Source of the DNA: a virus
Taxonomy: Duplodnaviria > Heunggongvirae > Uroviricota > Caudoviricetes > Straboviridae
Strand: one strand, 5' to 3'
IMG/VR virus record: IMGVR_UViG_3300011728_000017
DNA: 64,000 bases
A model generated the notes under the pieces. It worked only from the letters and a program-made list of their open reading frames with translations. It was not told the DNA's origin and ran no database searches. Below, one piece after another: positions 457 to 49,168 of the stretch (the stretch's first letter is position 1; each line of letters starts with the position of its first letter). Position numbers and translations under genes: made by a program.

Positions 457-1830
457 ATGAAATATGTTATCGACACAAATGTTTTGATCAGTAACCCCTA
501 TTCAATTTATTCTTTCGTTGAACCCGACACAGAGATTATTATCACTGCTGCAACCCTGGGTGAATTGGACCATCTTAAAACGAAAGAAAAGACTTCCCGT
601 GAAGCTCGTTTAGTAAGCAAACTGCTTTCAAAGATTATTTTCGGGCGTAGTTATAAAGAAATTTCCACCACTGGCGTTTCGTTGCATGACACGAACCCGG
701 TGATCCCCGAATCCGTGACATTGCGTGTCGCTGATTGCAACTCTAAAGAATTCCCAATTGACCAACAGGACGCGCGTATTATCGCTACCTGTATTCAGGA
801 AAATGCTGTACTCATTACCCGCGATCTGAATATGATGCTGATTGCAATGTCACAGGGTTGCGAAACTCTGCCGTATACCGGGGATGATACAATTAAAGAT
901 TCCGATGTTCTGTATTCCGGGGTGATTGAAATCCCTGATTTCTGGAACGTGGTGAATGTTGATCGTTATGTGTATGCCGATGGCTATCACGCCGACGTTG
1001 CTGTTATTTCATACCAGACAAATGACGGACCGTGCCTTAACGAATTTGACCTGTATCCGAACCAGTATATTTTTGACGGTGATGAAGTAGTTGGTAAGGT
1101 TATCCGTGCGAATGAATACGATCTGGAAGTGCTTCCGGTTAAGAATGAACAGCTACTTAAACGCAAGCTGATGAAGTCTATCACCCCGCGTGATGGTTAT
1201 CAGGGCGCTGTTGTAGACAGCATGATGAACGACGATACAGACGTTGTGTCAATCCTGGGTAGTGCTGGATCCGGCAAAACAATGCTTGCTGTTTCTACTG
1301 CAATGCACTTGATTAACGCAGGCCATTATGCTAACTTGCTCTACGTAAAAGCTGATAGCCCGTTATCCGGTGAAATCGGATTCCTGCCCGGTACGTTAGG
1401 CGAAAAACTGCGTCCTTCCATCGAACCTTGCATGACCAGTCTGAATATCTTGTTTAAGGATAATCCAGAGTCGGAAAAATACATCGAAGGTCTGATCGAA
1501 AAAGAAGTAGTTCAGTTCCCCAGCCTTTATTATTTCCGTGGTCGTTCTATCGGACACCCTGATCCGGGTAAAGGATCCATTCTGATTGTTGATGAATGTC
1601 AAAACCTAAGTAATCATGAAATGAAATCAATCGTTTCCCGTTGCGGTGAGAATACTTTACTGGTACTATGCGGGAACATTAACCAGATTGATAACCCACG
1701 AAACACCGCCGTTAATAACGGTTTCGTTTATGCGGTTGAAAAGTTCAAAGAGTATGAACATGCCAGCCATATCATTCTGAAAACTGTTTATCGTTCTCGT
1801 CTTGCTGCTTTTGTGGAAGACAACTTTTAA
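457..1830 (+). CDS. phoH: PhoH-like ATPase with N-terminal PIN domain
   Basis: Walker A GSAGSGKT, DEcQN Walker B-like VDECQN, N-terminal PIN-like acidic residues; RBS aaggaaa upstream; T4-like phages encode PhoH. Confidence 0.85.
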   Translation: MKYVIDTNVLISNPYSIYSFVEPDTEIIITAATLGELDHLKTKEKTSREARLVSKLLSKIIFGRSYKEISTTGVSLHDTNPVIPESVTLRVADCNSKEFPIDQQDARIIATCIQENAVLITRDLNMMLIAMSQGCETLPYTGDDTIKDSDVLYSGVIEIPDFWNVVNVDRYVYADGYHADVAVISYQTNDGPCLNEFDLYPNQYIFDGDEVVGKVIRANEYDLEVLPVKNEQLLKRKLMKSITPRDGYQGAVVDSMMNDDTDVVSILGSAGSGKTMLAVSTAMHLINAGHYANLLYVKADSPLSGEIGFLPGTLGEKLRPSIEPCMTSLNILFKDNPESEKYIEGLIEKEVVQFPSLYYFRGRSIGHPDPGKGSILIVDECQNLSNHEMKSIVSRCGENTLLVLCGNINQIDNPRNTAVNNGFVYAVEKFKEYEHASHIILKTVYRSRLAAFVEDNF

Positions 1831-2321: not shown

Positions 2322-2875
2322 TGGAAAATCGGTATATTGTTTTGAAGCAAACCGATGTTGATGCTGCTCTCGATAATAGCGAGAAACTTGAACTTTCTTC
2401 ACTAATGATGAAAGTATACAAAAAGCGCATTGAAAGTAAAAAACCTTTGGAAGCGGTTGTTGTTGAATCCGATTGGCCTGAATATGCGCCAACTTGCCGG
2501 GCGATTGAAAAACGTATTGAACGTGAAACTAAACTAAGTACAATGGAACAAATGTTTGGCAAGGGCGAATTCTTTACACATTTCTATGTAATTGAAACCC
2601 CTCGTGGTATTTTCCTGGTAAACTCGGATGCTCATAGCGTTAGCCGTCTGCGAAATTATAGTGGGTATCAGTACCGCGCAATTACGAGCGTTGATGGTTC
2701 ATACGATCCTAACGTGATTTTGAAAACTGGCTGGAGTACCGGATTTGGTATGGTTGTTAAGGTGAATAGTGTTGATATAGTCAATTGCTACGAACCTAAT
2801 CGGCTAAATGGGATAGGTGAAAAGCTGATTGCTTTCATGGAAGAACAGATTCGAGTAGCCAAAAATTATGAGTAA
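2321..2875 (+). CDS. Hypothetical protein
   Basis: 184-aa ORF; coupled start (gtaATGg overlaps the upstream stop). Confidence 0.55.
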   Translation: MENRYIVLKQTDVDAALDNSEKLELSSLMMKVYKKRIESKKPLEAVVVESDWPEYAPTCRAIEKRIERETKLSTMEQMFGKGEFFTHFYVIETPRGIFLVNSDAHSVSRLRNYSGYQYRAITSVDGSYDPNVILKTGWSTGFGMVVKVNSVDIVNCYEPNRLNGIGEKLIAFMEEQIRVAKNYE

Positions 2876-2880
2876 ATAAT

Positions 2881-2908
2881 AAGAGGGGTGATTCTGCCCC
2901 TCTTGTTT
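2881..2908 (+). terminator. Stem-loop gaggggtgattctgcccctc followed by a T-tract
   Basis: Inverted repeat plus ttgtttt after the stop at 2875. Confidence 0.5.
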
Positions 2909-2921
2909 TAAAGGTATTACA

Positions 2922-3548
2922 ATGAAGAAAATTTTATTAGCGGCTTGTATTTTCTTATGCTCTTTTGCAAGCCACGCACAAACTGATCCACTGGGCGACT
3001 TTATATCGACGTTGCCACTTCAAAAAGCGACATATCCAACCGAAATTAAAAAGAGCGCACCTGGATATCTTCGGGAATTAAACACCCTGAAACCAGAACA
3101 AAAGAAAGTTCTGGAGTATGCTTTGAAAGTCGGAAACGACTATAATATTAAAAACGCTAAACCTGCGGAATCAGAAAAAGCTAAACGTCTCGGATATCAT
3201 TTAGCGGCTATTGCATGGATCGAAACACGGGCGTGTTTGGATACCGGAAAAGGCAAACCCGGTCACAAATCATATGGGTGCTGGCAGGTCACTGTTAATA
3301 GTGCATCAGCGACAATGGATAAATCATATCCCAAACGTGTAGTAATCAAAAAGCTGGAAACTCTGAAAGGTGGATCTAAGTACGCGATCCATGCTCTTGA
3401 ATACTGGCTTGATTATCATAATGGCAACATGCAGAAAGCACTAGCCAGCTACAACGCCGGGTTCAAGTACAACAGCCAGGAGGCCAGGAAGTATGCGCGT
3501 ATGGTAGAGCGCACGGCTAAGGCACTGGAAGAACACCGGATAATTTAA
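2922..3548 (+). CDS. Secreted lytic transglycosylase-like protein (SLT domain)
   Basis: Signal peptide MKKILLAACIFLCSFASHA; SLT-like motifs IAWIETRA (catalytic E), GCWQV (GLMQ-like), ASYNAGFKY (AYNAG). Confidence 0.55.
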   Translation: MKKILLAACIFLCSFASHAQTDPLGDFISTLPLQKATYPTEIKKSAPGYLRELNTLKPEQKKVLEYALKVGNDYNIKNAKPAESEKAKRLGYHLAAIAWIETRACLDTGKGKPGHKSYGCWQVTVNSASATMDKSYPKRVVIKKLETLKGGSKYAIHALEYWLDYHNGNMQKALASYNAGFKYNSQEARKYARMVERTAKALEEHRII

Positions 3549-5109: not shown

Positions 5110-5211
5110 TGAGTATCGGGTATTTGATTTTGGCTGGTATTGTTTGTATTATTGGCCTTCTGGTGATTTGCTTCCGTTCACAAATGGATGATTACGATAA
5201 TGATTATTGAA
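5109..5211 (+). CDS. Small hydrophobic membrane peptide (33 aa)
   Basis: MSIGYLILAGIVCIIGLLVICF..., single TM; too short for the ORF track. Confidence 0.3.
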
Positions 5212-5667
5212 GAAGTAAAAGGAAATGCGGTAACGATGCATCTTGAAGGTAAAGGACATCTGATCCACGGGTGTAACTGTCATTGTGCTATGGGGAAAGG
5301 GATCGCTAAAGAAGTTAAAAGCCGGATCCCGATGGCATATCGGGTTGATCAATACACCGTCAGGGGCGACCGGAATAAACTGGGAACCTGTTCCGTGTGG
5401 AACGAAAACGGCGTATATGTATTCAATGCCTATACCCAGTATAATTTCAACAGTAAAACGCCTGATGTTGATTACGACGCTATTGCAAAGTGTTTTGAAA
5501 ATGCAGTAGAATTCTGTAAGAACAAAAACTCAACCCTTCCGATCATTACGCCTTTAATTGGTGCTGGTTTGGCTGGCGGCGACTGGGTTAAAATTCGGGC
5601 AATTATTGAAAAGGCAACTGATGATTACCCGGTAATCGTGGTTCACTTCGATCCGAATAAGGTTTGA
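5188..5667 (+). CDS. Macro-domain-like protein (putative ADP-ribose binding/hydrolase)
   Basis: N-terminal HGCNCHCAMGKGIAKEV (macro NAAN..GGG..AI-like) and ITPLIGAGLAGG (macro P-x-I-x-x-G-x-x-G loop). Confidence 0.5.
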   Translation: MITIMIIEEVKGNAVTMHLEGKGHLIHGCNCHCAMGKGIAKEVKSRIPMAYRVDQYTVRGDRNKLGTCSVWNENGVYVFNAYTQYNFNSKTPDVDYDAIAKCFENAVEFCKNKNSTLPIITPLIGAGLAGGDWVKIRAIIEKATDDYPVIVVHFDPNKV

Positions 5668-6763: not shown

Positions 6764-7072
6764 ATGAATATTAAGCGACTATTACAAACATCCACACTTC
6801 TGTTTCTTTTGTCGCCTGTACATGCATTTGCAGATACACCGGAACGGCTAGTTCCGGTTGAATTTGATCAATATATCAACGCTGCATTACGTGTGTATAA
6901 GGCAACAATTCCCCCTAGCATCAACACCAGTGAATTGTTTTACGATTTCATGGAAAGGAAATGGCAACAGAAACAGTGTACCGCCGAAAAGGAATGTCTT
7001 AATTTAGGGATGCGGGTAGCTACAGAATTTGCCAACAACTATCATACAAGGGATAACAATGCAGACCTTTAA
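6764..7072 (+). CDS. Secreted hypothetical protein
   Basis: Signal peptide MNIKRLLQTSTLLFLLSPVHAFA. Confidence 0.5.
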   Translation: MNIKRLLQTSTLLFLLSPVHAFADTPERLVPVEFDQYINAALRVYKATIPPSINTSELFYDFMERKWQQKQCTAEKECLNLGMRVATEFANNYHTRDNNADL

Positions 7073-7439
7073 ACAACTAACAGAACGTGAATCCGTTGAT
7101 GTGGATACGTTCATTGGCCTATGTCTGATGTCGGTTACGTATATGCACAGTGCGCATTTCGCTACAAGATCCTACGCACAGCATAAAGCGTTTGAAGAGT
7201 TCTATAAAGAAATGACTGAACTTGTCGATAAATTCACCGAAACAAATATAGGCATTACCGGAACGTATAAACCTGTATTAAAAACTGAAAATAATATTGA
7301 CACTGTGGAGTATTTGCGTAGAATAGCAGTCACAGGAGAGGAAATATATAAAACCGTTGATACATCACTTCAAAGTATCATCGATGAAATAAAAGTTCTC
7401 TGCTATCAAACGATATACAAAATCACGCATTTCGCGTAA
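7059..7439 (+). CDS. Hypothetical protein (start uncertain, 7029 or 7059)
   Basis: ORF 7029..7439; internal ATG 7059 (MQTFKQL) avoids overlap with the previous ORF. Confidence 0.45.
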   Translation: MQTFKQLTERESVDVDTFIGLCLMSVTYMHSAHFATRSYAQHKAFEEFYKEMTELVDKFTETNIGITGTYKPVLKTENNIDTVEYLRRIAVTGEEIYKTVDTSLQSIIDEIKVLCYQTIYKITHFA

Positions 7440-7461: not shown

Positions 7462-8376
7462 ATGAATCTGAATTCTATCGTATCAAACCCAAAGAAAACT
7501 TCCATCATTGCTCTGGCTGTAGTTGCTGCATTGTGGTTGGTGCCAAACGCATATACCATCGTACAAGACGGCACTGTTAAAACACAGACCTTCATGGGTA
7601 AAGTTTCGCCAAACCCTGTGATGCCCGGTTTCCACCTGGTAAACCCGCTGGCTGATTTTGATACGTTCAGCACGAAAGATATTGCAATGAAATTTGATAA
7701 ATTGCAGATTCCATCCCAGGATAAATTTAAATCCACTGTGGATATGACTGTGATGTTGCAGTTCGATGGTAGCAAAGCCCCGATCAACCGTATCAACGCG
7801 GGTAGTCAGGATCAGGCGCTTGATAAGTACGTAACTGAAAAACTGCTTTCAACCGTTCGTGAGTTCGGGAAATCGGTTCCTAAAGCGCAAGATCTGTTTG
7901 ATTCAAAAGTTCAAAGCCAGTTGCAGACTGCGATCCAACAGGAAGTTGAAGATTATGCGCGTCCATACGGGTACACCGTTAAGCAAGTATTCCTGCAAGA
8001 CATTACCCTGCCGGAAGTAATCATGACTCAGGTAACGAATACAAAGATTCGTGAAGAACAGGTTAACGCCGAAAAAGCAGAACTTGCTAAGAAGAGAGAG
8101 ATTGCGCAGCAGCAAGTTGTAACTTCCATCGCGCAGAAAGAATCTCGTGCTAACGATGCACAGGCCAGTGAACGTGATGCTGATGCGCGTCTGTATGCTG
8201 CACAGAAAGAAGCAGAAGCGAACAACGCGCTGCAAAAAACAATCACTCCTGAAATGATTCGCTGGAAAGAACTTGATGTTCAAATGATCCGAGCGCAAAA
8301 ATACCAGGGCGGCGTACCGCAAACCGTAATGGGCGCGGATTACGAAGGCAAAGTGATTTTTGATTCTCGTAAATAA
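7462..8376 (+). CDS. SPFH/band-7 (prohibitin/HflC-like) membrane protein
   Basis: N-terminal TM, then an SPFH-like core (TIVQDG...GFHLVNP...), followed by a long Ala/Glu/Gln-rich coiled coil. Confidence 0.65.
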   Translation: MNLNSIVSNPKKTSIIALAVVAALWLVPNAYTIVQDGTVKTQTFMGKVSPNPVMPGFHLVNPLADFDTFSTKDIAMKFDKLQIPSQDKFKSTVDMTVMLQFDGSKAPINRINAGSQDQALDKYVTEKLLSTVREFGKSVPKAQDLFDSKVQSQLQTAIQQEVEDYARPYGYTVKQVFLQDITLPEVIMTQVTNTKIREEQVNAEKAELAKKREIAQQQVVTSIAQKESRANDAQASERDADARLYAAQKEAEANNALQKTITPEMIRWKELDVQMIRAQKYQGGVPQTVMGADYEGKVIFDSRK

Positions 8377-8383
8377 GATCACT

Positions 8384-8412
8384 AAAAGCCCCTTAACCGG
8401 GGCTTGATTTTT
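8384..8412 (+). terminator. Terminator aagcccctt-aacc-ggggctt + TTTTTTT
   Basis: Hairpin plus T7 run after the stop at 8376. Confidence 0.6.
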
Positions 8413-8430
8413 TTAACGAGAGAAAACCGA

Positions 8431-8532
8431 ATGAAACTACTAAAACAGATAGTAATGACTATTATCATTTCATTGATTTTTGGTTTTATTGGTGGTTTAA
8501 TGGGTGTTCTCATTATTGCATCTGTTTTATAA
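8431..8532 (+). CDS. Small hydrophobic membrane peptide (33 aa)
   Basis: MKLLKQIVMTIIISLIFGFIGGLMGVLIIASVL, single TM; upstream of NatV. Confidence 0.3.
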   Translation: MKLLKQIVMTIIISLIFGFIGGLMGVLIIASVL

Positions 8533-8558
8533 TTCCTTAACACAACGTGGAGTACGTT

Positions 8559-9620
8559 ATGAAGTACAAATTTGATAAAGCTGTCGTGATTGGCAGATTC
8601 CAACCTTTCCATAATGGTCATGCGAAGATGATCAGCGAAGCGCTGAAAGAATCCGAAAAGGTCTATATCCTGATCGGTTCCTCTAATGCATACCCTAATG
8701 TGATTAACCCGCTTACCGCCGCCGAACGTAAAAGAATGATCCTGCGTTGGATTGCGGTTAGCCTTAAATCCCACGAAACCGAACGAATTCAGTTCGCTGA
8801 AATTCCAGATTCGCTGTATAACGACGAAAAATGGAAATCAAATGTTCGCCTGGCGATTGATGAACAGAAAGGGGATCGGGTTGCTATCTATGGATTCTAT
8901 AAAGATAGCGATTCCTACTGGCTTAAAGCTTTCGGATGGGAACACCGCGCAGTATACCCTGTTCTGGGTAAAAAAGGCGGGTGTATCAATGCGACTGATC
9001 TTAGAAAGATTATTTTCGCACATAAAAACGGATGGGATAACGCTATCTCTGATTATGTTCCGCAAACCACTGTAGATTTCATTGATATCTGGATGCGGTC
9101 GGATAACTTCTGGCGTATCGAACATGAATCGCGGAAGTGGGAAAGCGAGTTAGAAAAATTCATGGGATATCCATACCCGGAAGCGTTGAACTGCTGTACG
9201 GCTGACAGTGTTGTGGTCTGTAATAACCATATTTTGCTGATCCGTCGTAAGTATGCCCCTGGTCAGGATGCTCTTGCTCTGCCCGGTGGACACAAAAACG
9301 CTAATGAAACGTTCCTGGACTGTGCGATTCGTGAACTGTTGGAAGAAGTGCGAATTAAAGTACCTGAAAAGGTTATTCGTGGTTCTATCCGCAATTCTAT
9401 GCTGTTCGATCATCCCCGTCGGTCTGCGTACTTCTCAAAACCGACTGTAGCGCAGTATATCAAGCTCGAACCAAACCCGGACGGTAGCCTACCCCGAATC
9501 ATGGGAGGCGCTGACGATGCGGCTGATGCGTTCTGGATGCCACTCCATGATGCTATCCGCAATCAAAACCAGTTCTTTGATGATCATTTCCAGATCATTA
9601 CTGCATTTACTGGTATCTGA
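8559..9620 (+). CDS. natV: Bifunctional nicotinamide-mononucleotide adenylyltransferase / Nudix ADP-ribose pyrophosphatase (NatV-like)
   Basis: N-terminal VIGRFQPFHNGH (HxGH NMNAT motif) and ISW-like region; C-terminal Nudix box GGHKNANETFLDCAIRELLEEV; RBS ggag upstream of ATG 8559. Confidence 0.85.
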   Translation: MKYKFDKAVVIGRFQPFHNGHAKMISEALKESEKVYILIGSSNAYPNVINPLTAAERKRMILRWIAVSLKSHETERIQFAEIPDSLYNDEKWKSNVRLAIDEQKGDRVAIYGFYKDSDSYWLKAFGWEHRAVYPVLGKKGGCINATDLRKIIFAHKNGWDNAISDYVPQTTVDFIDIWMRSDNFWRIEHESRKWESELEKFMGYPYPEALNCCTADSVVVCNNHILLIRRKYAPGQDALALPGGHKNANETFLDCAIRELLEEVRIKVPEKVIRGSIRNSMLFDHPRRSAYFSKPTVAQYIKLEPNPDGSLPRIMGGADDAADAFWMPLHDAIRNQNQFFDDHFQIITAFTGI

Positions 9621-9644
9621 TAAAAAAGTATTAGAAAACTCTTA

Positions 9645-9700
9645 AAAGCCCTTGACGAAAGTCAGGGGCTTTTGTTATTTTACCCGCATGGAAACGAACC
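9645..9700 (+). promoter_or_regulatory. PeSL-like cassette (stem-loop aagcccTTGACGaaagtcaggggctt, -10 TTATTT, GGAAACGAACC leader)
   Basis: Same architecture as the other cassettes. Confidence 0.6.
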
Positions 9701-10796: not shown

Positions 10797-11198
10797 ATGA
10801 CTGATATTAGAGATTTAACTGATGTGAAGGCAGGCGATACCCTGTTTGATCCTGGCGAAAGTCGATATAATAACCGCAAACATGGTCAGCCTCGCCTTTT
10901 TCATGTTTTTAAAGTGGCACGTCAATATCTGTATGCTTCCACTGAGAAAGATGTTACAGACATTAAACACTGGTCGGTTGAAAAGGTTGACCGTAAAAGC
11001 GGATTGACTGCCGGATCTGGCGGTGGCTGGGGCGGGTTTTATTTGTATCGCAGTGAAGCGGTACATAGCGAAATTAAATACCGGGCGGAACTATGCGACA
11101 AGATCAGAAAAGAATTCGGTACTAATTCCGTTCGTGTTCCAGAAATTACTACCGACGAACTTCGTGGGATTGCAAAAACATTAGGGGTTGAATTTTGA
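10797..11198 (+). CDS. Hypothetical protein (Gly-rich patch SGGGWGGF)
   Basis: 133-aa ORF with RBS aaggaaa. Confidence 0.5.
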   Translation: MTDIRDLTDVKAGDTLFDPGESRYNNRKHGQPRLFHVFKVARQYLYASTEKDVTDIKHWSVEKVDRKSGLTAGSGGGWGGFYLYRSEAVHSEIKYRAELCDKIRKEFGTNSVRVPEITTDELRGIAKTLGVEF

Positions 11199-12193
11199 AA
11201 ATTGTAATGGAAACGGTATTCGGTTCCCATCTTTATGAACTGAACACACCAACAAGCGACAAGGATTATAAAGGGATCTTTCTCCCACATCCTCGCGATA
11301 TCCTGATGGGTACTGCACCGAAAACCATCGACACGTCAACGGGCAATAAAAACTCTAAAAACACCGTAGACGACGTTGATCGTCAGATGTATAGCCTGAC
11401 TAAGTTCATCAGCCTTGCGTGTGATGGTGACACCGTAGCGCTTGATATGCTTCATGCCGGGGATAACAAGCTACTGGCTAACTCTGAGATCTGGCAGTAT
11501 ATCCGCACTAACCGTAGCCGATTCTACACCACGGAATTAACTGGCCTGTTCGGTTATGTTCGTAAACAAGCCGCGAAATATGGCGTTAAAGGATCCCGAC
11601 TGGCTGCACTGCGCGAAGTGTATGACGTGTTGCAAAAAATCGACGATGCCCGCAAAATGAATCTCCCTCTTAATCTGGGGGAAGCGACTCACCGGGTTAA
11701 AGTTGGCGAAGTGTCGCATAAATTCCCAACTAACGAATTCTGCCGATTCACTCGTGACGAAACGCTGAAATCAGGTTGTCAGGACTTCTATGAAGTGCTG
11801 GGGCGTAAATTCCAATCCACGATCACAGTAGCGGAAATGAAAAAGTCCGTGTACAAGCTCTGGGATGAATACGGCGAACGCGCCCGACAAGCCGAAGCTA
11901 ACAACGGGATCGACTGGAAAGCGTTGTCTCATGCGTTGCGTGGCGGTATTCAGCTAATCCAGATCTATAAGCACGGTGATATCACATATCCTCTGCCGGG
12001 TAGCGCTTTCCTGAAACAGGTTAAAGCTGGTAATGTACCGTTTGCGACTGTACAGGAAGAACTTGAATCCGTTATGGGTGAAGTTGAACGCCTCGCGGCT
12101 GTTTCTAATTACCCGAAAGAAGTGGATCGTAAATTCTGGAATGATTTTATCGAACGTGTTTATTCTGAACACGTAGTGGGATATTACAAATGA
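11195..12193 (+). CDS. Predicted nucleotidyltransferase (minimal NTase / Pol-beta superfamily fold)
   Basis: N-terminal FGSHLYELNTPTSDKDYKG = GS-x(11)-SDxD NTase signature, with later acidic residues (DDVDRQ, DGDTVALD); the start is TTG 11195 or ATG 11207. Confidence 0.55.
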   Translation: MKIVMETVFGSHLYELNTPTSDKDYKGIFLPHPRDILMGTAPKTIDTSTGNKNSKNTVDDVDRQMYSLTKFISLACDGDTVALDMLHAGDNKLLANSEIWQYIRTNRSRFYTTELTGLFGYVRKQAAKYGVKGSRLAALREVYDVLQKIDDARKMNLPLNLGEATHRVKVGEVSHKFPTNEFCRFTRDETLKSGCQDFYEVLGRKFQSTITVAEMKKSVYKLWDEYGERARQAEANNGIDWKALSHALRGGIQLIQIYKHGDITYPLPGSAFLKQVKAGNVPFATVQEELESVMGEVERLAAVSNYPKEVDRKFWNDFIERVYSEHVVGYYK

Positions 12194-12947: not shown

Positions 12948-12972
12948 GCCCCTTCGGGGGCTTTTTATTTGG
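12946..12972 (+). terminator. Terminator aagcccc-ttcg-ggggctt + TTTTATTT
   Basis: UUCG hairpin plus T-tract. Confidence 0.6.
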
Positions 12973-12980
12973 GAGAAAGA

Positions 12981-13892
12981 ATGAGAATTATCGACCTATG
13001 CGCGGGTGTAGGTGGAGTCAGATTAGGGTTTCAACAGGCGTTTGGTGAAATCGAATGTCTTTTAACATCTGAGATTGATAGCCACGCGCAAGAAACATAC
13101 CGCAAAAACTTCGGGCCGGATAATATTCAAGGTGATATTTTCGCTATCAACGAAAATGATGTACCGGATCACGATATCCTGTTAGCCGGGTTCCCTTGTC
13201 AGGCTTTCAGTAAGGCCGGGAAGAAATTAGGTTTCAGCGATCCCCGTGGTACGATCTTCTTTGAGATCATGCGAATTATCCGCGCTAAAAAGCCCTCTGT
13301 GCTGTTTTTTGAAAACGTGCCTGACCTACTTACCCATGACGACGGGAACACGTTCAGGACGATTTACGGGCTTCTGGAGGGGGAAGGGTATGATGTGTAT
13401 TACCAGGTGCTAAACACGAAGGATTTTGGATTGCCCCAGCGAAGGAAGCGAGTCTTTATTGTTGCTTTCAGGGATCCTGTTTTCTTCTCGTTCCCGGTTC
13501 CTCCATGCACCCCAACCAGGGTAGGCGATCTGCTGGAAAGTGATGTAAGTGATTCATTCACTCTTACGGATAAGCTGTGGGCTGGCTTCCAGTACCGCAA
13601 GGAACGAAATAAGGCAAACGGTAAGGGTTTTGGCTATCAGTCCGTTACAGAGGATTCTGCGTATACCGCTACCCTGCCTGCCCAATATTGGAAAGACGGG
13701 GTGCAGTGTCTTGTATTGCAGGAAAGAAAGAACCCCAGAAGATTAACGCCTCGTGAATGTTTTCGTTTGCAGGGATTTCCTGAATCCTTTATTATTCCTG
13801 ATAGTAAAAAACAAGCGTACAAACAAGCCGGGAATTCTGTTTCGGTTCCTGTTATCCGTGCTATTGCTGAACAAATTAAGAAGGTTTTATGA
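12981..13892 (+). CDS. dcm: DNA (cytosine-5)-methyltransferase
   Basis: Motif I IDLCAGVGG, motif IV GFPCQAFS, ENV motif FFENVPDL, C-terminal target-recognition region and QAGNSV; RBS gggag upstream of ATG 12981. Confidence 0.88.
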   Translation: MRIIDLCAGVGGVRLGFQQAFGEIECLLTSEIDSHAQETYRKNFGPDNIQGDIFAINENDVPDHDILLAGFPCQAFSKAGKKLGFSDPRGTIFFEIMRIIRAKKPSVLFFENVPDLLTHDDGNTFRTIYGLLEGEGYDVYYQVLNTKDFGLPQRRKRVFIVAFRDPVFFSFPVPPCTPTRVGDLLESDVSDSFTLTDKLWAGFQYRKERNKANGKGFGYQSVTEDSAYTATLPAQYWKDGVQCLVLQERKNPRRLTPRECFRLQGFPESFIIPDSKKQAYKQAGNSVSVPVIRAIAEQIKKVL

Positions 13893-15453: not shown

Positions 15454-17658
15454 ATGACTATTTCAAATATCGAATTTAAAAATGCTGTAGCAAAACCTAC
15501 CCCTACCAACCACGTATTTGTATGTGACGTTTCTGGTTCGATGTATAACGAACTTCCGCGTATCCGTACACATCTGAAAAATAATCTGGCTACTCTGGTA
15601 AAACCTAACGATACCGTATCGATCCTGTATTTTGCCAGCAAAGGCCAATATGGTTCTGTATTCGTCGGTGAGAAGATTAAAACGATCTCCGACCTGTCTG
15701 GTATCAATGATGCTATCGACCGCTTCCTGCGTCCTACAGGCTGTACTGGCTTTGTCGAACCGCTTAACCTTGCCGTACAGGTAGCAACCGATCTACAGGC
15801 CGACAATGGCAATCTGAACAGCCTTATTTTCCTGACCGATGGTTATGATAACTGCTGGCGTACCGACGATATTCTCAAAGCATGTTCCGCGCTTCCGCTT
15901 GCGTTTAATAATATTGCTTTCCTGGAATACGGTTATTATGTAAACCGTCCTCTTCTGGAAAAAATGGCAGAAGCAACAAACGCACTGCATAAATTCGTTG
16001 AAGGTTTCGATCAATATGAACCTGCGTTTAACGATATTATTAGCGCACAGACTTCCGCGCGAATTGAAGTAAATGTTGGTGATGCGACTCATGCAATTTA
16101 TATTGATGAAGGTCGTGTTTATGTTGTTAATGCCGCAAATGGTATTGCTCTGATCCCGGAACATATTAAAAACGTTTGGGCTATCGGTGAAAACGCTATT
16201 AACGATGTTGACTCATTTGATCCGGTAAATGACCAACAGGTATTATATGTTGTGCTTTATCATGCGCTGCAAACAATGAATCCTGATCTGGCGTGGAAGG
16301 TTCTGAAAAAAGTGGGCGACGTGCGACTGATTAAGGCGTATGATAACTGCTTTACAAAACAGGATTATTCAAACGCTAAAGATCTGATTTCAAGCTGTGT
16401 TGTTGATCCAGCGCAACGCCTGGTAGACGGTGTTGATTACAATATGGTTCCAGACGAAAACGCATTCACCCTGGTTGATGCTCTTGAACTGCTGGCAGAA
16501 TCTGACACCGAAATCGATCTGAGTTCTCCTCATTGGGCTTACAACCGTACCGGGCGTGTGCGTACCCAGAAAGACGATACCACGCTTGATGAACTGTCTG
16601 CACAGATCGCGAATGCATCGACCGCAGAAGAACGGAAAGAACTGGCGGCTAAAATGGTTGATTACGAAGTGTGGAAACCAGAATTTAACCAGACCACAAC
16701 AAAAGTTTCACTGAAACATTTAGTGGGCAACAGTTCCCGTCCGAATATTTCGATTAATACGGATCTGGCTGGGTATGTTGAAATTCCTGCTGGCTATCGT
16801 CAGAAATTTGGTTTGCCGAAACAAATCGAAACCAAACAGGTGCGAAACTTTACCATTGTCAAAGACGGTATTGTTAACGTGAAACAGTTGCCTCTGGAAA
16901 CTGATATTCAGACGCTTAAAAATCTCCGTGCTTCTGGCCTGACAATTAAGCCTCTGGAAAAAATCGGTGAAGATCGTATGTCGGTTCTGGTTGATTTTAC
17001 CAGTCTTCCGCTGATTAACCGGGCCATGACACGCGGGATCTCTGGTAAAGAGTATGTTACCGACTGTGTTCATCTGGAAGTGCTGAAAGCACGTCAGAAG
17101 GTGCTTAAATTCCTTCGTGATGGTTCTATCGGTCGTGGTAATGCTAAAGGACTCGCGGAACTGTACGGTGAAGATGCTGCTACCTGGTTATCTGAACAGG
17201 GTATTCGTGATTACGGTTTCTCTCCTAAAGTAAGCACCGGGGAATCTACCGATGTTTATATGTCGAAAGAGCTAAACGTAAAAATTAAGGGTGCTAGTTC
17301 TCTTCCGGCTGTTGCGGCAACTGTTAAAAAACGTGACGAAAATAAGAAGAAGCTTAACGCTGCTGACCAGATGATTATTTTTGCTTACGATTCTGTACAA
17401 AAGGAAATTAAAGAGCTTGACAAGGATCAACTCGTCAAGTATCTTGAAGTTGAGACACGAAATGCGATCAACTCCGTTCGTTCTCTTAATAACCGCCTTT
17501 CTCGCGTTATGTATGGTATTGTCGTTGGTCATGCGTGGTTCGCAGATCTCGACTTCGAAGAAACCGAAGTAACTGTACCCGGCAAGGAAGTGAACGAATT
17601 CTTCAAAGATGATTTTGTTTGTTCTATCGTCCTGGAAGAGAAAGAAATTAAAATTTGA
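15454..17658 (+). CDS. von Willebrand factor A (vWA) domain protein, 734 aa
   Basis: N-terminal MIDAS DVSGSM (DxSxS), T/D residues (FLTDGYDN) and Rossmann-like alternation; long C-terminal region of unknown function. Confidence 0.7.
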   Translation: MTISNIEFKNAVAKPTPTNHVFVCDVSGSMYNELPRIRTHLKNNLATLVKPNDTVSILYFASKGQYGSVFVGEKIKTISDLSGINDAIDRFLRPTGCTGFVEPLNLAVQVATDLQADNGNLNSLIFLTDGYDNCWRTDDILKACSALPLAFNNIAFLEYGYYVNRPLLEKMAEATNALHKFVEGFDQYEPAFNDIISAQTSARIEVNVGDATHAIYIDEGRVYVVNAANGIALIPEHIKNVWAIGENAINDVDSFDPVNDQQVLYVVLYHALQTMNPDLAWKVLKKVGDVRLIKAYDNCFTKQDYSNAKDLISSCVVDPAQRLVDGVDYNMVPDENAFTLVDALELLAESDTEIDLSSPHWAYNRTGRVRTQKDDTTLDELSAQIANASTAEERKELAAKMVDYEVWKPEFNQTTTKVSLKHLVGNSSRPNISINTDLAGYVEIPAGYRQKFGLPKQIETKQVRNFTIVKDGIVNVKQLPLETDIQTLKNLRASGLTIKPLEKIGEDRMSVLVDFTSLPLINRAMTRGISGKEYVTDCVHLEVLKARQKVLKFLRDGSIGRGNAKGLAELYGEDAATWLSEQGIRDYGFSPKVSTGESTDVYMSKELNVKIKGASSLPAVAATVKKRDENKKKLNAADQMIIFAYDSVQKEIKELDKDQLVKYLEVETRNAINSVRSLNNRLSRVMYGIVVGHAWFADLDFEETEVTVPGKEVNEFFKDDFVCSIVLEEKEIKI

Positions 17659-39015: not shown

Positions 39016-39891
39016 TTAAAAATCACCGTAGTTAACTTGCAGACACGGGATTCCATTCATTCGCCACATACCAACAACACTATCGCGATCATCAACCGCC
39101 AGAACTGGACGATATTTAGCCATAATCTTTTCGGTCAAAATTTGTTCTTTGATTTCGATATCGTGTCGATGATCACCTTCTGGACGCATAAAGAAATCAT
39201 CCCATTCAAGACCAAACCGTTTGAGACTAGCAATAGTATCGTGACGACATTGCTGGGTATCTTCCCGGCCTGTAGCAATAACGATTTTCTTACCCTCATT
39301 GCGGTACATCTGCAAAAGTTCCTGGATATGGTAGTTTGCAGGATCGTCGATTACTTTCGTGAAATCATACGGGCTGCGATCACCGATAATCGTTAATGTT
39401 CCATCCACGTCAAAGATCACACATTCAGGCAGGTCAGGATCCATGAAATCTACAGCCGGAATCCACCCTCTACGCAGTCGATATAGTTTATACATATCCC
39501 AGAGACGACTAACAGGCAACGCCTCTATACCGCGCTTATGGTTGCGTCTTAGCAGTTCGACAATAGACACATCAAAGAACTGTTTATGGAAACTCGCTTT
39601 GTACAGTTCTGCGATCTGCTTCCATTTGATTAAATCTTTTTCATGCAGGTTGGTATCATGAACAATGACGTTTTTACCGCTTGTCAGGGCAACTACAACC
39701 GCTTCCTGTTGAATCCTGTTCATGATCTCTTCTTTTTCTTTAGTGAACTTGTAATTCTCAAGACCACCATAAAGAGTTGCGCGAATATCATCGCGGGAAA
39801 CCAGTAAAGTGTTTCCTGATTGTTTGGCTTCTTCTTTCGCCCATGTAGATTTCCCGCTACCCGCCACGCCAATAGTAATAGTCAACTTCAT
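39016..39891 (-). CDS. pseT: Polynucleotide 5'-kinase / 3'-phosphatase
   Basis: N-terminal kinase P-loop GVAGSGKST; C-terminal HAD phosphatase motif VIFDVDGTL; 291 aa (T4 301). Confidence 0.88.
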   Translation of the reverse strand: MKLTITIGVAGSGKSTWAKEEAKQSGNTLLVSRDDIRATLYGGLENYKFTKEKEEIMNRIQQEAVVVALTSGKNVIVHDTNLHEKDLIKWKQIAELYKASFHKQFFDVSIVELLRRNHKRGIEALPVSRLWDMYKLYRLRRGWIPAVDFMDPDLPECVIFDVDGTLTIIGDRSPYDFTKVIDDPANYHIQELLQMYRNEGKKIVIATGREDTQQCRHDTIASLKRFGLEWDDFFMRPEGDHRHDIEIKEQILTEKIMAKYRPVLAVDDRDSVVGMWRMNGIPCLQVNYGDF

Positions 39892-40357: not shown

Positions 40358-40677
40358 TTATCGAATTCCTTCATATACTCGTCGAACGATTTATTGATTT
40401 TGATTTCAACCAGACCGGGTTTCTCGAATAGAAGATGTTTCCGGCCTGCATCTTTCAGCAATTGCTGATCCGCTGCTTTGGCTTCGACATAATAAATCGT
40501 GTTTCCGGTATTGGTTTCTTTTACTGCTTTGATATCCTGATTCAGTTTCGTGATATCTTGTTTCAACTGATTGTTTTCTATCTTCGCGGAGACGGTCATA
40601 TAAAAGAGCGCCGCCAAAGACGACGCAACAATCAAAGGCCATACCAAAGAAGATAGCTTTGGAAAGGCTATATTCAT
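40354..40677 (-). CDS. Type-II inner-membrane protein with coiled coil, i-spanin candidate
   Basis: N-terminal TM, then a coiled coil (NNQLKQDITKLNQDIKAVKE); analogous to T4 pseT.3. Confidence 0.55.
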   Translation of the reverse strand: MNIAFPKLSSLVWPLIVASSLAALFYMTVSAKIENNQLKQDITKLNQDIKAVKETNTGNTIYYVEAKAADQQLLKDAGRKHLLFEKPGLVEIKINKSFDEYMKEFDK

Positions 40678-41822
40678 TTATATTCTTCCGGGTAATATTG
40701 ATCGCAATTTTTAACCATCGTTTCAATGATATCATCAACCAACTGTTGTTTGTCGGTATTAACGAAATAACGCATCATCGGCCCGAAAATGATTTTACCG
40801 TCTTGAGATAAATCAGAACTCAGAGCAACCGCGAAATCCTTACGAGATTTACCTTTGAGGGTTTCAATCGCAGTAAATGCTTTACTGGTAAGACGATTCA
40901 ATGAATCAAGGAACAGGTTTTCGAATGCATCAATTTTCTTTAAAGCAACGATATCATCAATGAATAACTGTTTCAAATCATCAACAGTATTTTCTGCGAT
41001 ATTCATGAACAGATCTTTATTGTTATTGATACTGTCTTTTGTGCGATGAAGATTCACATACCAGTTAGTTTTGATTTTGAAGAAACCAGTATCAGTTTTG
41101 ACTACATATCCTTCAAACCCAGTCATTTCATACACATCAGACACGAATTCTTCGAGACTGTCAAATATAACTGCTTCTTTCTTCACCAGATAACGACGCA
41201 GAATCGGATCATTAAACAGATCTTTATCACTGACGTATTCGCCTGTATCGTTATCACGAACGTTAAGGATCACAACACCCGGCTGTTCGTAGCCAATCAC
41301 TATACGGTTGCTTGGCGAAACATATTCCATGTTCACGGTATAACCATCTTTCACTAGCTCATACAGACGCGCCGCAAACTCAGGATCCTGATGAATCACC
41401 GACATTGCACACATAGCCTGGTCAGAGTTAACAGAGGCTTTTGATTTTGCGCCCAGATAACCGGAATCGTCGAACGTGGAGATCAGGGAACCATCTTCCT
41501 TGATCATAACACTCTCAATGCGCCCAATCTCAGCAGGAGCCTTTTCCAGTGCTTCCCATGCCTTTACTTCGGCATAGTTGAAAAACTTCGCCATAGGGCG
41601 ACTCAGGAGTTTTACAGGGGTATCGTTGTCCATCTGGAACATAATACCACGACATTCTAAAGCACCCGGTTTCAGCCAGTCCGAATATCCAGCCATCCGA
41701 TAAGAGAAAATGCGTACCGGGGTTTGCATCGGGGTTTTCTGGTCAACGAAAAAGAAAGAGTCGTTTTCAGCGCACAGATCAATTAACTGGTTATAAAGTT
41801 CTTCTTGTTTTTCACTCAACAT
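40674..41822 (-). CDS. rnlA: RNA ligase 1
   Basis: Alignable by recall to T4 Rnl1 (gp63): RIFSY..YSDWL.P.ALECRGIMF, KEDGSL (lysine-adenylation motif), EGYV; 382 aa against 374. Confidence 0.88.
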   Translation of the reverse strand: MLSEKQEELYNQLIDLCAENDSFFFVDQKTPMQTPVRIFSYRMAGYSDWLKPGALECRGIMFQMDNDTPVKLLSRPMAKFFNYAEVKAWEALEKAPAEIGRIESVMIKEDGSLISTFDDSGYLGAKSKASVNSDQAMCAMSVIHQDPEFAARLYELVKDGYTVNMEYVSPSNRIVIGYEQPGVVILNVRDNDTGEYVSDKDLFNDPILRRYLVKKEAVIFDSLEEFVSDVYEMTGFEGYVVKTDTGFFKIKTNWYVNLHRTKDSINNNKDLFMNIAENTVDDLKQLFIDDIVALKKIDAFENLFLDSLNRLTSKAFTAIETLKGKSRKDFAVALSSDLSQDGKIIFGPMMRYFVNTDKQQLVDDIIETMVKNCDQYYPEEYK

Positions 41823-47452: not shown

Positions 47453-49168
47453 TTAGTAAGTCAACTTCCAGAGCTTAATTGCTTCGTCTACACCTTCTTT
47501 AATTTCGTTCGGTGTTTTGCCCCGGCCTGCTTTAACCAACATCCCCAGCATTTTACGGATCGTGTTGTTCATTGCTGCTGCTTCACGATCCATTTCCGCC
47601 TGGTGAGCTTTATCAACGGCTGGTTCTTCTTTCTTCGCCGTAGTCGGTTTGGTAGGTTGTGCGCCTAATTCATCCTTACGGGCTTCTGGGGTTTTCTTCT
47701 GTTCCGCTTGTTTCTTGACGTGCGGTGCTGAATACTTCCCGGCTTTATAGTTGGCTTCCATTTGTTTCAACGTCTGACCGAAGATGTACCAGTCAGCAAT
47801 ACCGCGCAGTGCTTTAAGGGTATCAGCCATCAACGCAATGGTAGATCCGTCTGTCTTCTCGTCTACTTCAAATTTTAACCATTCGTTATGACGAATCCCG
47901 TCATGCTTGAATTCATAACTGCTGAATGTCCATACACCTTTACGGTTCACAACGTTACGCTGCATGTGGAGGGTAATTCCAGCACCGTTATCAAAGTGCC
48001 AGTAACGATCTGAACCACTCGCGCCCACTGCTTTCAGTGCGGAGAAATAATCTTCTTTACCGATACGGTTTACAGTGCGCTTTGGTTTCTCTTCCGGTTT
48101 CGGTGCTGCTTCATGAGCCGCCATACGTTTCACGAAAGAGGCGCTACGGTGTCCAGCGCTAAACTCTGCATACATCTTTTCAACCACGTTAACGATGGTC
48201 TGCGCGTCGTTTGGTTGCGCTTTTTGCAGTTCCTTGAAGGTGTCGATAATCATATCCAGACATGCACCTTCTTCATCTTCCAGCATCCATCCTTTCAGAC
48301 GTGCAACCGGGCGATATTTGTTCACCGCTGGTTCGATGATGTAGTTGAACACGTAAGATCCTTGACGCATCATAACCTGACGACCGAAATGCACCGTAAA
48401 TTTACCAACCGGAATAGAGATATTATCATCGCCGTTGCGGGTTGCGTTCAGGTGCTTGATAAACGCCAGCATATAATCCGCGCGTTTGTATTTCTGGTTT
48501 TTCTGTTCAGGACTGAAAATCTTTTTCAGTTTGATAGCCGGGAACAGGCTTTCAGGGGTGATCTTATCCGGGTTTTTACCCCACTGATATTCCCGACGTG
48601 CCATTTTGTGTTTTTTGGTTCCGACCAGAACATCAGTATCAACTGATACGTTACCCAGCGCAGATGCATCAGGAGACACTAAACCGCCGTTGCTTGATGG
48701 AGGCTGGCAGATAAAGTTAAAGTCAAACATCGCATCACCAGAACGGAATTTAAAGATCGCCTGTACGGTATGAGCGCCTTTAACCAGGTTATAAGTGAAA
48801 GTGGTTGGCTGGCCTGTGTGACTGGTGAAGTATTCCGCGAATTCCTGAGCGTTAAACTTAGTGCTGAAATAGTTCTTAGCGGTCACATGATACGCTTCTA
48901 ACTTTTCTTCCCATTCTTTTTTCTGCTGTGCATAACGTGCGCGAATATCACCTTGAGTTTCAGATCTGGCACCAGATGGGCCAGTTTTGGTCACTACGTC
49001 ATAAGCCTGGTTGATCTTCTGCATTAATTCAGTGCTACCACCGCGATCCGGGTGATTACGCAGAGAAGCGCGTTTAAAGAGTTTAGACATTTCAGCACTG
49101 GTTTCATTACCAGTTGCGCCTAAAACCTTCAACGCTTCCTGATATGTCATTTTGGATTCTGTAATCAT
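47453..49168 (-). CDS. J-domain (DnaJ-like) protein with a large C-terminal region of unknown function
   Basis: N-terminal J-domain: YQEALKVLG...LFKRASLRNHPDRGGS...MQKINQAYDVV (HPD motif); 571 aa. Confidence 0.7.
   Translation of the reverse strand: MITESKMTYQEALKVLGATGNETSAEMSKLFKRASLRNHPDRGGSTELMQKINQAYDVVTKTGPSGARSETQGDIRARYAQQKKEWEEKLEAYHVTAKNYFSTKFNAQEFAEYFTSHTGQPTTFTYNLVKGAHTVQAIFKFRSGDAMFDFNFICQPPSSNGGLVSPDASALGNVSVDTDVLVGTKKHKMARREYQWGKNPDKITPESLFPAIKLKKIFSPEQKNQKYKRADYMLAFIKHLNATRNGDDNISIPVGKFTVHFGRQVMMRQGSYVFNYIIEPAVNKYRPVARLKGWMLEDEEGACLDMIIDTFKELQKAQPNDAQTIVNVVEKMYAEFSAGHRSASFVKRMAAHEAAPKPEEKPKRTVNRIGKEDYFSALKAVGASGSDRYWHFDNGAGITLHMQRNVVNRKGVWTFSSYEFKHDGIRHNEWLKFEVDEKTDGSTIALMADTLKALRGIADWYIFGQTLKQMEANYKAGKYSAPHVKKQAEQKKTPEARKDELGAQPTKPTTAKKEEPAVDKAHQAEMDREAAAMNNTIRKMLGMLVKAGRGKTPNEIKEGVDEAIKLWKLTY

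What the first reader, a model, noticed from the sequence alone, without database searches (positions are those of the whole stretch)
8559..9620. NatV-like bifunctional NMN adenylyltransferase–Nudix: candidate NAD+ reconstitution (anti-NAD-depletion) gene
The N-terminal (H/T)xGH nucleotidyltransferase (GRFQPFHNGH) is fused to a canonical Nudix box (GGHKNANETFLDCAIRELLEEV). This is the architecture of KVP40 NatV, which together with a NadV (Nampt) forms the NARP2 pathway reported to rebuild NAD+ from ADPR and nicotinamide and to overcome Thoeris-, DSR- and SIR2-type NAD+-depleting immunity. No nadV is visible in this window, so a partner may lie elsewhere in the genome. The small hydrophobic peptide immediately upstream (8431..8532) may be co-transcribed.
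Basis: partly seen in the sequence, partly recalled or inferred. Interest (0 to 1): 0.55.

Follow-up and report, generated by a model that had tools for sequence, protein, structure and literature searches.

The report
Phage NatV NAD+ salvage enzyme gene
This gene of a T4-like phage encodes a two-domain enzyme that makes NAD+ from nicotinamide mononucleotide and breaks down ADP-ribose; it is a clear ortholog of the known KVP40 NatV half of the phage NAD+-rebuilding pathway NARP2, and the sister phage is already catalogued as carrying that pathway, so it is real but ordinary.

Summary
Window 8559..9620 (+) is a 353-aa ORF with an intact HxGH nucleotidyltransferase domain and a Nudix domain. It aligns over its full length with solved NadM-Nudix enzymes (2QJO, E 2.5e-53) and is 42% identical to KVP40 NatV.

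The window holds no Nampt, but a partner exists.
- The closest phage, Yersinia phage JC221 (NatV 88% identical), encodes a Nampt 74.6 kb from natV.
- All five RB43-like IMG/VR contigs with NatV also carry Nampt.
- KVP40's own natV and nadV lie 43 kb apart.
- The window's exact NatV and a Nampt 89% identical to JC221's are each recorded on a JGI contig of 175,246 bp, almost certainly the same genome.

Osterman et al. already list the JC221 and KP15 Nampts as "Nmnat-associated", meaning NARP2. The gene is therefore the Nmnat/ADPR-pyrophosphatase half of a known, already catalogued pathway.

The upstream 33-aa hydrophobic ORF is a conserved, unannotated micropeptide gene under purifying selection. 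Two intrinsic terminators bracket it together with natV.

The counter-defence role is inferred from heterologous KVP40 experiments and has not been shown for this clade. Interest is low.

The parts
8559..9620 (+). natV-like CDS, 353 aa: bifunctional NMN adenylyltransferase / Nudix (ADP-ribose pyrophosphatase-type) protein
   Evidence: ORF and sequence. Pfam, NCBIfam and PHROG matches. Full-length alignment to PDB 2QJO and 2QJT. 41.8% identity to KVP40 NatV and 88.4% to JC221_077.
8565..9119 (+). N-terminal NMNAT (HIGH-superfamily nucleotidyltransferase) domain, about aa 3-187
   Evidence: NCBIfam PRK13793 nicotinate/nicotinamide nucleotide adenylyltransferase, aa 3-187, 2e-26. Pfam CTP_transf_like, aa 10-68.
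8592..8621 (+). GRFQPFHNGH, the (H/T)xGH ATP-binding motif (H18, G20, H21)
   Evidence: G12, R13, F14, F17, H18, G20 and H21 are invariant in 9 phage homologues including KVP40 NatV. Numbering.
8985..9005 (+). INATDLR, the second NMNAT signature (ISxTxxR type), aa 143-149
   Evidence: It aligns with FSSTAIR of Synechocystis and FNATEFR of Francisella NadM-Nudix and with ISATDFR of KVP40 NatV.
9195..9590 (+). C-terminal Nudix domain, about aa 213-344
   Evidence: Pfam NUDIX, aa 216-344, 1.5e-14. PHROG 1198.
9285..9356 (+). Nudix box G244-x5-E250-x7-R258-E259-L-x-E262-E263-x-R265-I266
   Evidence: G243, G244, E250, R258, E259, L260, E262 and E263 are invariant in 9 homologues.
8549..8552 (+). 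Shine-Dalgarno GGAG, 6 nt before the ATG
   Evidence: Read from the sequence. 'cgtggag(t/c)acgttatg' is conserved in JC221, the RB43-like contigs and Miro.
8431..8532 (+). Conserved, unannotated 33-aa single-pass hydrophobic micropeptide ORF, 26 nt upstream of natV
   Evidence: It is present at the same place in JC221, four RB43-like contigs and Klebsiella phage Miro, with a conserved FGFIGG..GVLIIASVL tail. pN/pS is 0.23-0.38. A degenerate DNA pattern for it hits only the six RB43-like IMG/VR contigs. It has no PHROG or Pfam family.
8386..8414 (+). Intrinsic terminator after the SPFH gene and before the micropeptide ORF
   Evidence: Pattern scan. Hairpin of -12.9 kcal/mol, z -3.4. In relatives the stem is conserved while the loop varies.
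9643..9684 (+). Intrinsic terminator after natV
   Evidence: Pattern scan, 14-bp stem followed by a T-run. -22 kcal/mol, z -5.7. The Miro record annotates terminators at the same place.
7297..7324 (+). Sigma-70-like promoter candidate (TTGACA-16-TAGAAT, 11 of 12) inside the DUF5856 gene; a possible source of the SPFH, micropeptide and natV transcript. Tentative.
   Evidence: Pattern scan. The number of promoter-like sites in the region is no higher than in shuffles. The same site is conserved in JC221, the RB43-like contigs and Miro.

Best explanation
The gene encodes a NadM/NatV-type bifunctional enzyme. Its N-terminal domain adenylylates nicotinamide mononucleotide with ATP to give NAD+. Its C-terminal Nudix domain hydrolyses ADP-ribose, and probably NAD(H), to AMP plus ribose-5-phosphate. 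It works with an unlinked nicotinamide phosphoribosyltransferase (Nampt/NadV) encoded about 74 kb away, outside the window. The route is nicotinamide + PRPP -> NMN (Nampt), then NMN + ATP -> NAD+ (NatV). This is the KVP40-type salvage pathway named NARP2, which refills the NAD+ pool during infection and so blunts NAD+-depleting host defences. What is shown here: the domain architecture and catalytic motifs, orthology to the characterised proteins, and the presence of the partner in the closest relatives and, indirectly, in this genome. What is inferred: the enzyme activities, the use of host Prs to turn ribose-5-P into PRPP, early expression by read-through from an upstream promoter, and the counter-defence benefit.
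For: Architecture and motifs. Full-length match to solved NadM-Nudix enzymes 2QJO (E 2.5e-53) and 2QJT (2.1e-43). 41.8% identity over 349 aa (E 8e-87) to KVP40 NatV. Ref. 24 of the Osterman preprint reports that KVP40 NatV has NMNAT activity. Partner: JC221_194 Nampt lies 74.6 kb from natV in the closest phage and is 51% identical to KVP40 NadV. All 5 RB43-like IMG/VR contigs with NatV also hold Nampt. KVP40 natV and nadV are themselves 42.7 kb apart. The window's exact NatV and Nampt P0122 (89% identical to JC221's, 48% to KVP40 NadV) are each on a JGI/IMG contig of 175,246 bp. Literature: JC221 and KP15 Nampts are listed as 'Nmnat-associated' in Table S2 of the NARP paper. [quoted passage not shown] KVP40 NARP2 cancels type I Thoeris, DSR2 and aRES.
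Against: No Nampt lies in the 64-kb window, and the 175,246-bp contig could not be fetched to prove linkage. The NCBIfam score of 254 bits is below the curated equivalog cut-off of 397. No activity or phenotype data exist for this clade; all counter-defence tests used the KVP40 genes in heterologous hosts. NARP2 raises NAD+ even without a defence system, so the selective benefit could be general metabolism. No convincing promoter lies directly upstream of natV in this phage.
Confidence: 0.82

Rival explanations
1. Same biochemistry, different purpose. The NatV/Nampt pair is a general auxiliary metabolic module that keeps NAD+ high for phage nucleotide metabolism, redox reactions and NAD+-consuming phage enzymes, rather than a dedicated counter-defence.
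For: NARP2 over-produces NAD+ even in cells without a defence system. The gene sits in an early accessory block and not in an anti-defence island. Earlier genome papers interpret nadV/natV as pyridine nucleotide scavenging for deoxynucleotide synthesis.
Against: The KVP40 genes abolish Thoeris, DSR2 and aRES defence. The two roles are not mutually exclusive.
Confidence: 0.3
2. NatV acts without a phage Nampt. It would recycle host-derived NMN (for example from NAD-dependent ligase turnover) and clear ADP-ribose.
For: No Nampt in the window.
Against: Nampt is present in JC221, in all RB43-like contigs examined and, by contig-length identity, in this genome. A survey of 21,191 viral proteomes reports that every NadM phage has NadV.
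Confidence: 0.04
3. The Nudix domain is the main actor. It would destroy ADPR-derived immune signals or remove NAD caps from RNA, and the NMNAT domain would be secondary.
For: Nudix enzymes act on many ADPR-containing compounds. A Macro-domain protein that handles ADPR derivatives lies 3 kb upstream.
Against: All NMNAT motifs are intact and invariant across homologues. The Nampt always co-occurs. No evidence for such substrates was found in the family literature read here.
Confidence: 0.04

Closest known systems
Vibrio phage KVP40 NatV (KVP40.0162), the Nmnat of NARP2
   Same: Same two-domain architecture, collinear over 349 aa at 41.8% identity. Same invariant HxGH and Nudix-box residues. Also in a T4-like (Straboviridae) phage, and also tens of kb away from its Nampt partner.
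   Different: About 58% of residues differ. This protein has a longer N-terminus and small insertions. Its host range is Enterobacteriaceae rather than Vibrio. KVP40 natV has its own consensus early promoter directly upstream and no micropeptide ORF.
Yersinia phage JC221 JC221_077 (with Nampt JC221_194), and the orthologues in RB43 / Pseudotevenvirus, Slopekvirus (KP15, Miro) and related genera
   Same: 88% (JC221) and 68-72% (the others) amino-acid identity. Identical neighbourhood: rI antiholin, DUF5856, SPFH, terminator, micropeptide, natV, terminator. The JC221 and KP15 Nampts are already listed as Nmnat-associated.
   Different: Only sequence divergence. In Miro and RB43 a consensus TTGACA-17-TATAAT overlaps the start of the micropeptide ORF; it is degenerate in the window and in JC221.
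Bacterial NadM-Nudix (Synechocystis slr0787, PDB 2QJO; Francisella tularensis, PDB 2QJT/2R5W)
   Same: Full-length alignment at E 2.5e-53 and 2.1e-43. Shared motifs, including the non-canonical residue in place of the last Nudix-box glycine and the N of (I/F)NAT in Francisella.
   Different: These are cellular housekeeping or salvage enzymes. The window protein scores below NCBI's equivalog cut-offs for those bacterial subfamilies.
NadR-like Bas30_86 of NARP3 (with a PnuC transporter)
   Same: Also a phage NMN adenylyltransferase that rebuilds NAD+ against SIR2-HerA-type depletion.
   Different: NadR fuses the NMNAT domain to a ribosylnicotinamide kinase and pairs with PnuC. Here the fusion partner is a Nudix domain, the NadR models match only weakly and only over the NMNAT part, and no PnuC was found among the scanned ORFs.

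Membership tests
NadM/NatV-type bifunctional NMNAT-Nudix (PRK05379; PDB 2QJO, 2QJT; KVP40 NatV) | N-terminal HIGH-superfamily nucleotidyltransferase with the GxFxPxH(x)GH motif | tested here: met
   GRFQPFHNGH at aa 12-21. G12, R13, F14, F17, H18, G20 and H21 are invariant in 9 homologues.
NadM/NatV-type bifunctional NMNAT-Nudix (PRK05379; PDB 2QJO, 2QJT; KVP40 NatV) | Second NMNAT signature (ISxTxxR type) | tested here: met
   INATDLR at aa 143-149 aligns with FSSTAIR (2QJO), FNATEFR (2QJT) and ISATDFR (KVP40). The S-to-N change is shared with the Francisella enzyme.
NadM/NatV-type bifunctional NMNAT-Nudix (PRK05379; PDB 2QJO, 2QJT; KVP40 NatV) | C-terminal Nudix fold with the catalytic box GX5EX7REUXEEXGU | tested here: met
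   G244..E250..R258 E259 L260 x E262 E263 x R265 I266. Only the last G differs, and it is R or N in the characterised family members too. Pfam NUDIX 1.5e-14.
NadM/NatV-type bifunctional NMNAT-Nudix (PRK05379; PDB 2QJO, 2QJT; KVP40 NatV) | Collinear full-length similarity to characterised members | tested here: met
   2QJO aa 4-338 against query aa 2-351, E 2.5e-53. KVP40 NatV 41.8% over 349 aa, E 8e-87.
NadM/NatV-type bifunctional NMNAT-Nudix (PRK05379; PDB 2QJO, 2QJT; KVP40 NatV) | Score above NCBIfam's curated equivalog cut-off (an annotation threshold for the bacterial subfamilies, not a biochemical feature) | tested here: not met
   Best model NF003786 scores 254 bits against a cut-off of 397, although the match spans model positions 11-354 of 354.
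NadM/NatV-type bifunctional NMNAT-Nudix (PRK05379; PDB 2QJO, 2QJT; KVP40 NatV) | NMN adenylyltransferase and ADP-ribose pyrophosphatase activities | not testable with these tools
   Needs purified protein and enzyme assays.
NARP2 (Nampt + Nmnat NAD+ reconstitution pathway) | Nmnat homologous to KVP40 NatV | tested here: met
NARP2 (Nampt + Nmnat NAD+ reconstitution pathway) | KVP40-clade Nampt encoded in the genomes of the closest relatives | tested here: met
   JC221_194 is 51% identical to KVP40 NadV. All 5 RB43-like IMG/VR contigs with NatV hold Nampt. Miller and Slopekvirus records are hit. JC221 and KP15 are listed as Nmnat-associated.
NARP2 (Nampt + Nmnat NAD+ reconstitution pathway) | Nampt encoded in this very genome | tested here: inconclusive
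   Not in the window. The strong indirect evidence is that the exact NatV protein and Nampt P0122 are each recorded on a JGI/IMG contig of 175,246 bp, and P0122 is 89% identical to JC221's Nampt, matching the 88% seen for NatV. The contig DNA could not be retrieved.
NARP2 (Nampt + Nmnat NAD+ reconstitution pathway) | Restores NAD+ and overcomes NAD+-depleting defence | not testable with these tools
   Shown only for the KVP40 genes expressed heterologously.
NARP1 (Adps + Namat) | Adjacent Prs-like Adps and Namat genes | tested here: not met
   No Nampt/Namat-family sequence in the window and no Prs-like domain among the scanned ORFs. The relatives' Nampt is classed as Nmnat-associated, not Adps-associated.
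NARP3 (PnuC + NadR) | NadR with a ribosylnicotinamide kinase domain, plus a PnuC transporter | tested here: not met
   The NadR models match only the NMNAT part, at 30-32 bits against cut-offs of 201-341. The C-terminal domain is Nudix. No PnuC was found among the scanned ORFs.

The most novel reading that the evidence does not exclude
Two nearby genes may extend the known two-gene NARP2 in this enterobacterial T4-like clade. One is the conserved, unannotated 32-33-aa transmembrane micropeptide that always sits 26 nt upstream of natV and inside the same terminator-bracketed unit. It could be a functional partner, for example a membrane tether or an uptake helper. The other is the Adpp-like Macro-domain protein 3 kb upstream. 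It could feed ADPR-1''-phosphate into the NatV Nudix domain so that ribose-phosphate is recovered.
Probability: 0.08. Interest if true: 0.5.

Novelty: already known. Interest (0 to 1): 0.15.

Why it matters
The gene marks this phage as a carrier of NARP2, a broad-spectrum way to escape NAD+-depleting defences (Thoeris, DSR, SIR2-HerA, aRES). That is useful for predicting host range or choosing therapeutic phages against Enterobacteriaceae. It adds no new mechanism, because the family, the pathway and its presence in the sister phage JC221 and in KP15 are already published. The only fresh items are side observations: a conserved unannotated micropeptide gene coupled to natV, and the lack of any native-phage test of NARP2 in this clade.

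Tried and rejected
1. I read the first 50 kb of KVP40 and 24 kb around natV of Vibrio phage R11Z looking for an adjacent nadV. None was there. The Nampt query came instead from Stenotrophomonas phage Ps15, where the two genes are adjacent.
2. The DOI look-up of the 2017 KVP40 NAD+ salvage paper failed because the paper is not held. Its results are cited only through the Osterman preprint or from memory.
3. The exact-protein look-up of NatV returned only a 3.5-kb Logan contig. The look-up of Nampt P0122 found nothing on record. The single metagenome scan did not contain the 175,246-bp contig.
4. The best Logan Nampt, P0001, came from a different run (SRR7685276) than the Logan NatV contig (SRR1749670), so the same-sample test failed.
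5. tblastn of the micropeptide against the phage collection gave nothing, probably because of low-complexity masking. A degenerate DNA pattern replaced it.
6. I looked for a promoter between the upstream terminator and natV. The scan found none, and the consensus promoter seen in Miro and RB43 is degenerate here. By eye I saw no MotA-box-like TGCTT element in 8300-8560.
7. I did not run structure prediction or a further large protein search. Solved homologues align over the full length, so a model would not change the verdict.
8. I rejected the NARP1 and NARP3 readings (see the membership test).

Full report
**Observation.**
The ORF is exactly as described. ATG is at 8559, six bases after a GGAG, and TGA is at 9618-9620, giving 353 aa. 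The quoted motifs are present:
- GRFQPFHNGH at aa 12-21
- the Nudix box GGHKNANETFLDCAIRELLEEVRI at aa 243-266
- a second NMNAT signature, INATDLR, at aa 143-149

Domain searches give these matches:
- Pfam CTP_transf_like (2.9e-10) and NUDIX (1.5e-14)
- NCBIfam PRK05379 'bifunctional nicotinamide-nucleotide adenylyltransferase/Nudix hydrolase', 2e-75 over aa 2-353, although the 254 bits fall below the curated equivalog cut-off of 397
- PHROG 395 at 6e-93

This is far beyond chance.

**What it is.**
The protein aligns end to end with two solved bacterial NadM-Nudix enzymes: Synechocystis 2QJO (E 2.5e-53) and Francisella 2QJT/2R5W (E 2.1e-43). Its one departure from the textbook Nudix box is R265 in place of the last glycine. 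That position is R in Synechocystis and N in Francisella and KVP40, so it is a family trait. The N of INATDLR is likewise shared with Francisella's FNATEFR.

Against KVP40 NatV, fetched from AY283928, the protein is 41.8% identical over 349 aa (E 8e-87). In an alignment of nine phage homologues, the HxGH residues (H18, G20, H21) and the metal-binding Nudix residues (E250, R258, E259, E262, E263) are invariant. natV is under purifying selection, with pN/pS of 0.11 against JC221.

**The phage.**
The window comes from a T4-like Straboviridae genome. Its closest sequenced relative is Yersinia phage JC221, at about 86% nucleotide identity over syntenic blocks and 88.4% for NatV. More distant relatives include RB43/Pseudotevenvirus and Slopekvirus (KP15, Miro), plus unclassified Enterobacter, Cronobacter and Citrobacter phages, at 68-72% for NatV. 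tblastn finds NatV homologues in 469 phage records.

**The partner.**
tblastn of three phage Nampts (Ps15, KVP40 and JC221) against the window finds nothing better than E 0.69. Pfam scans of 35 of the larger ORFs (one larger ORF, 47453-49168, was left unscanned) show no Nampt, Prs/Adps, NadR or PnuC.

The partner does exist outside the window:
- JC221 encodes JC221_194, a 474-aa Nampt that is 51% identical to KVP40 NadV and lies 74.6 kb from its natV. Extrapolated to this genome, that is about 65 kb beyond the window's left end.
- All five RB43-like IMG/VR contigs that carry NatV also carry Nampt.
- Citrobacter phage Miller and many Klebsiella Slopekvirus records are hit by the Nampt query.
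- In KVP40 itself, natV (94,507-95,532) and nadV (138,214-139,707) are 42.7 kb apart. An unlinked partner is therefore normal in T4-like phages.

For this very genome the evidence is indirect. The window's exact NatV sequence is recorded on a JGI/IMG contig of 175,246 bp. A Nampt, P0122, is recorded on a JGI/IMG contig of the same length. P0122 is 89% identical to JC221's Nampt, which matches the 88% seen for NatV, and 48% identical to KVP40 NadV, with the PAREHSTT stretch conserved between the two. That contig could not be retrieved, so physical linkage is a strong inference and not a proof.

**What is already known.**
- Table S2 of 'Phages reconstitute NAD+ to counter bacterial immunity' lists MN508817_00194 (the JC221 Nampt) and the KP15 Nampt as 'Nmnat-associated', meaning NARP2.
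- That preprint shows that the KVP40 Nampt and Nmnat genes abolish type I Thoeris and DSR2 defence and raise NAD+. It also reports that 94% of phages with a KVP40-type Nampt have an Nmnat, and that NARP2 occurs in about 1.1% of phages.
- A 2026 preprint from the same group shows that NARP2 also cancels the aRES system, because it starts from PRPP rather than ADPR.
- NARP3 is a different pair, PnuC plus NadR.

The finding is thus a correct identification of a known component in a clade where it has already been catalogued.

**Mechanism.**
- Shown here: an intact NMNAT domain, an intact Nudix domain and a co-occurring Nampt.
- Inferred from the characterised homologues: Nampt converts nicotinamide and PRPP to NMN, and the NatV N-domain converts NMN and ATP to NAD+. 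The NatV Nudix domain hydrolyses ADPR (and NAD(H)) to AMP and ribose-5-P, which host Prs can turn back into PRPP.
- Caveat: the Nudix substrate preferences of KVP40 NatV are recalled from the 2017 J. Bacteriol. paper, which is not held in the library.

**Local anatomy.**
The gene order is:
1. rI antiholin (6764-7072)
2. DUF5856 (7029-7439)
3. SPFH/Band-7 (7462-8376)
4. terminator (8386-8405 plus T-run; -12.9 kcal/mol, z -3.4)
5. 33-aa hydrophobic ORF (8431-8532)
6. natV
7. terminator (9643-9674 plus T-run; -22 kcal/mol, z -5.7)

This comes, and the same order holds in JC221 and Miro.

The small ORF is not annotated in JC221 or Miro. It is conserved in JC221, four RB43-like contigs and Miro, with a constant FGFIGG..GVLIIASVL tail, many synonymous changes and pN/pS of 0.23-0.38. 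A degenerate DNA pattern for it hits only the six RB43-like contigs in IMG/VR. It looks like a real, clade-specific micropeptide gene. Co-transcription with natV is plausible but untested.

No promoter is detectable between the first terminator and natV in this phage. Miro and RB43 have a consensus TTGACA-17-TATAAT overlapping the micropeptide start codon, and it is degenerate here and in JC221. A conserved TTGACA-16-TAGAAT at 7297-7324 is the nearest candidate promoter.

**Rivals.**
- The main alternative concerns purpose and not biochemistry. The module may be a general NAD+ booster, since NARP2 over-produces NAD+ even without a defence system.
- A stand-alone role without Nampt is made unlikely.
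- A signal-degrading or decapping role for the Nudix domain has no support.

**Verdict.**
Novelty is 'already known', and the interest is low. The micropeptide, and the Adpp-like Macro-domain gene 3 kb upstream, are the only items that might repay further work.

Noticed in passing
window 8431-8532 (+): Unannotated 33-aa single-pass hydrophobic micropeptide ORF. It is conserved (pN/pS 0.23-0.38) directly upstream of natV in JC221, the RB43-like contigs and Klebsiella phage Miro. A DNA pattern for it hits only the six RB43-like IMG/VR contigs. It has no PHROG or Pfam family. It could equally belong functionally with the upstream SPFH protein.
   Followed up: yes
window 5188-5667 (+): Macro-domain protein of 159 aa (Pfam Macro and ThsA_Macro; PHROG 335 'phosphatase'; PDB hits include yeast Poa1p, an ADPR-1''-phosphate phosphatase). 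It sits in the T4 tk.4 position next to vs and is found in about 2,970 phage records. It is 38% identical to the 'phosphatase' adjacent to the Prs-like gene of Vibrio phage Chester, so it is a homologue of the Adpp enzyme recently shown to counter aRES defence with NARP1. Its role in a NARP2 phage is unknown.
   Followed up: partly
L030 (Klebsiella phage Miro) 2351-2378 and L007 (RB43) 2851-2878; equivalent to window about 8401-8432: In Miro a perfect TTGACA-17-TATAAT overlaps the end of the terminator and the ATG of the micropeptide ORF. A transcript from it would start inside that ORF and serve natV only. RB43 has a near-consensus version of the same site, TTGACT-17-TACAAT. The site is degenerate in the window and in JC221.
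   Followed up: partly
L007 (RB43, IMGVR_UViG_638276010) NatV, alignment columns about 150-165: The RB43 NatV reads KIYLRPIYDQPSF where its relatives read KDLSATDLRPTIF. This is a short frame excursion across the ISATxxR motif, either a pair of compensating indels or a sequencing error in the old record.
   Followed up: no
L011 (Aeromonas phage 44RR2.8t) around 2754-3056: The 44RR NatV has a one-residue insertion in the nucleotidyltransferase motif (GRFSSFFHRGH). It is preceded by an 80-aa ORF with hydrophobic, glycine-rich stretches that look membrane-spanning (possibly a TM2-type domain, judged by eye and not scanned), instead of the micropeptide.
   Followed up: no
window 457-1830 (+): A 457-aa fusion of a PIN nuclease domain and a PhoH-like ATPase, annotated only as 'PhoH family' in JC221.
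   Followed up: no
window 10797-12193 (+); 39016-39891 (-); 40674-41822 (-): RNA-repair-type genes: a ProQ C-terminal-like protein, an RlaP-like (RNA repair pathway) nucleotidyltransferase, polynucleotide kinase-phosphatase and RNA ligase 1.
   Followed up: no
window 15454-17658 (+): A 734-aa protein with an N-terminal von Willebrand factor A domain. The rest has no family match, and it is annotated 'hypothetical' in JC221.
   Followed up: no
window 12969-13892 (+): A C-5 cytosine DNA methyltransferase (Pfam 2.5e-95) 3.3 kb downstream of natV.
   Followed up: no
window 47453-49168 (-): A 571-aa ORF next to gp46 (49411-51117) that I did not scan against any family library. It has no similarity to Nampt.
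   Followed up: no
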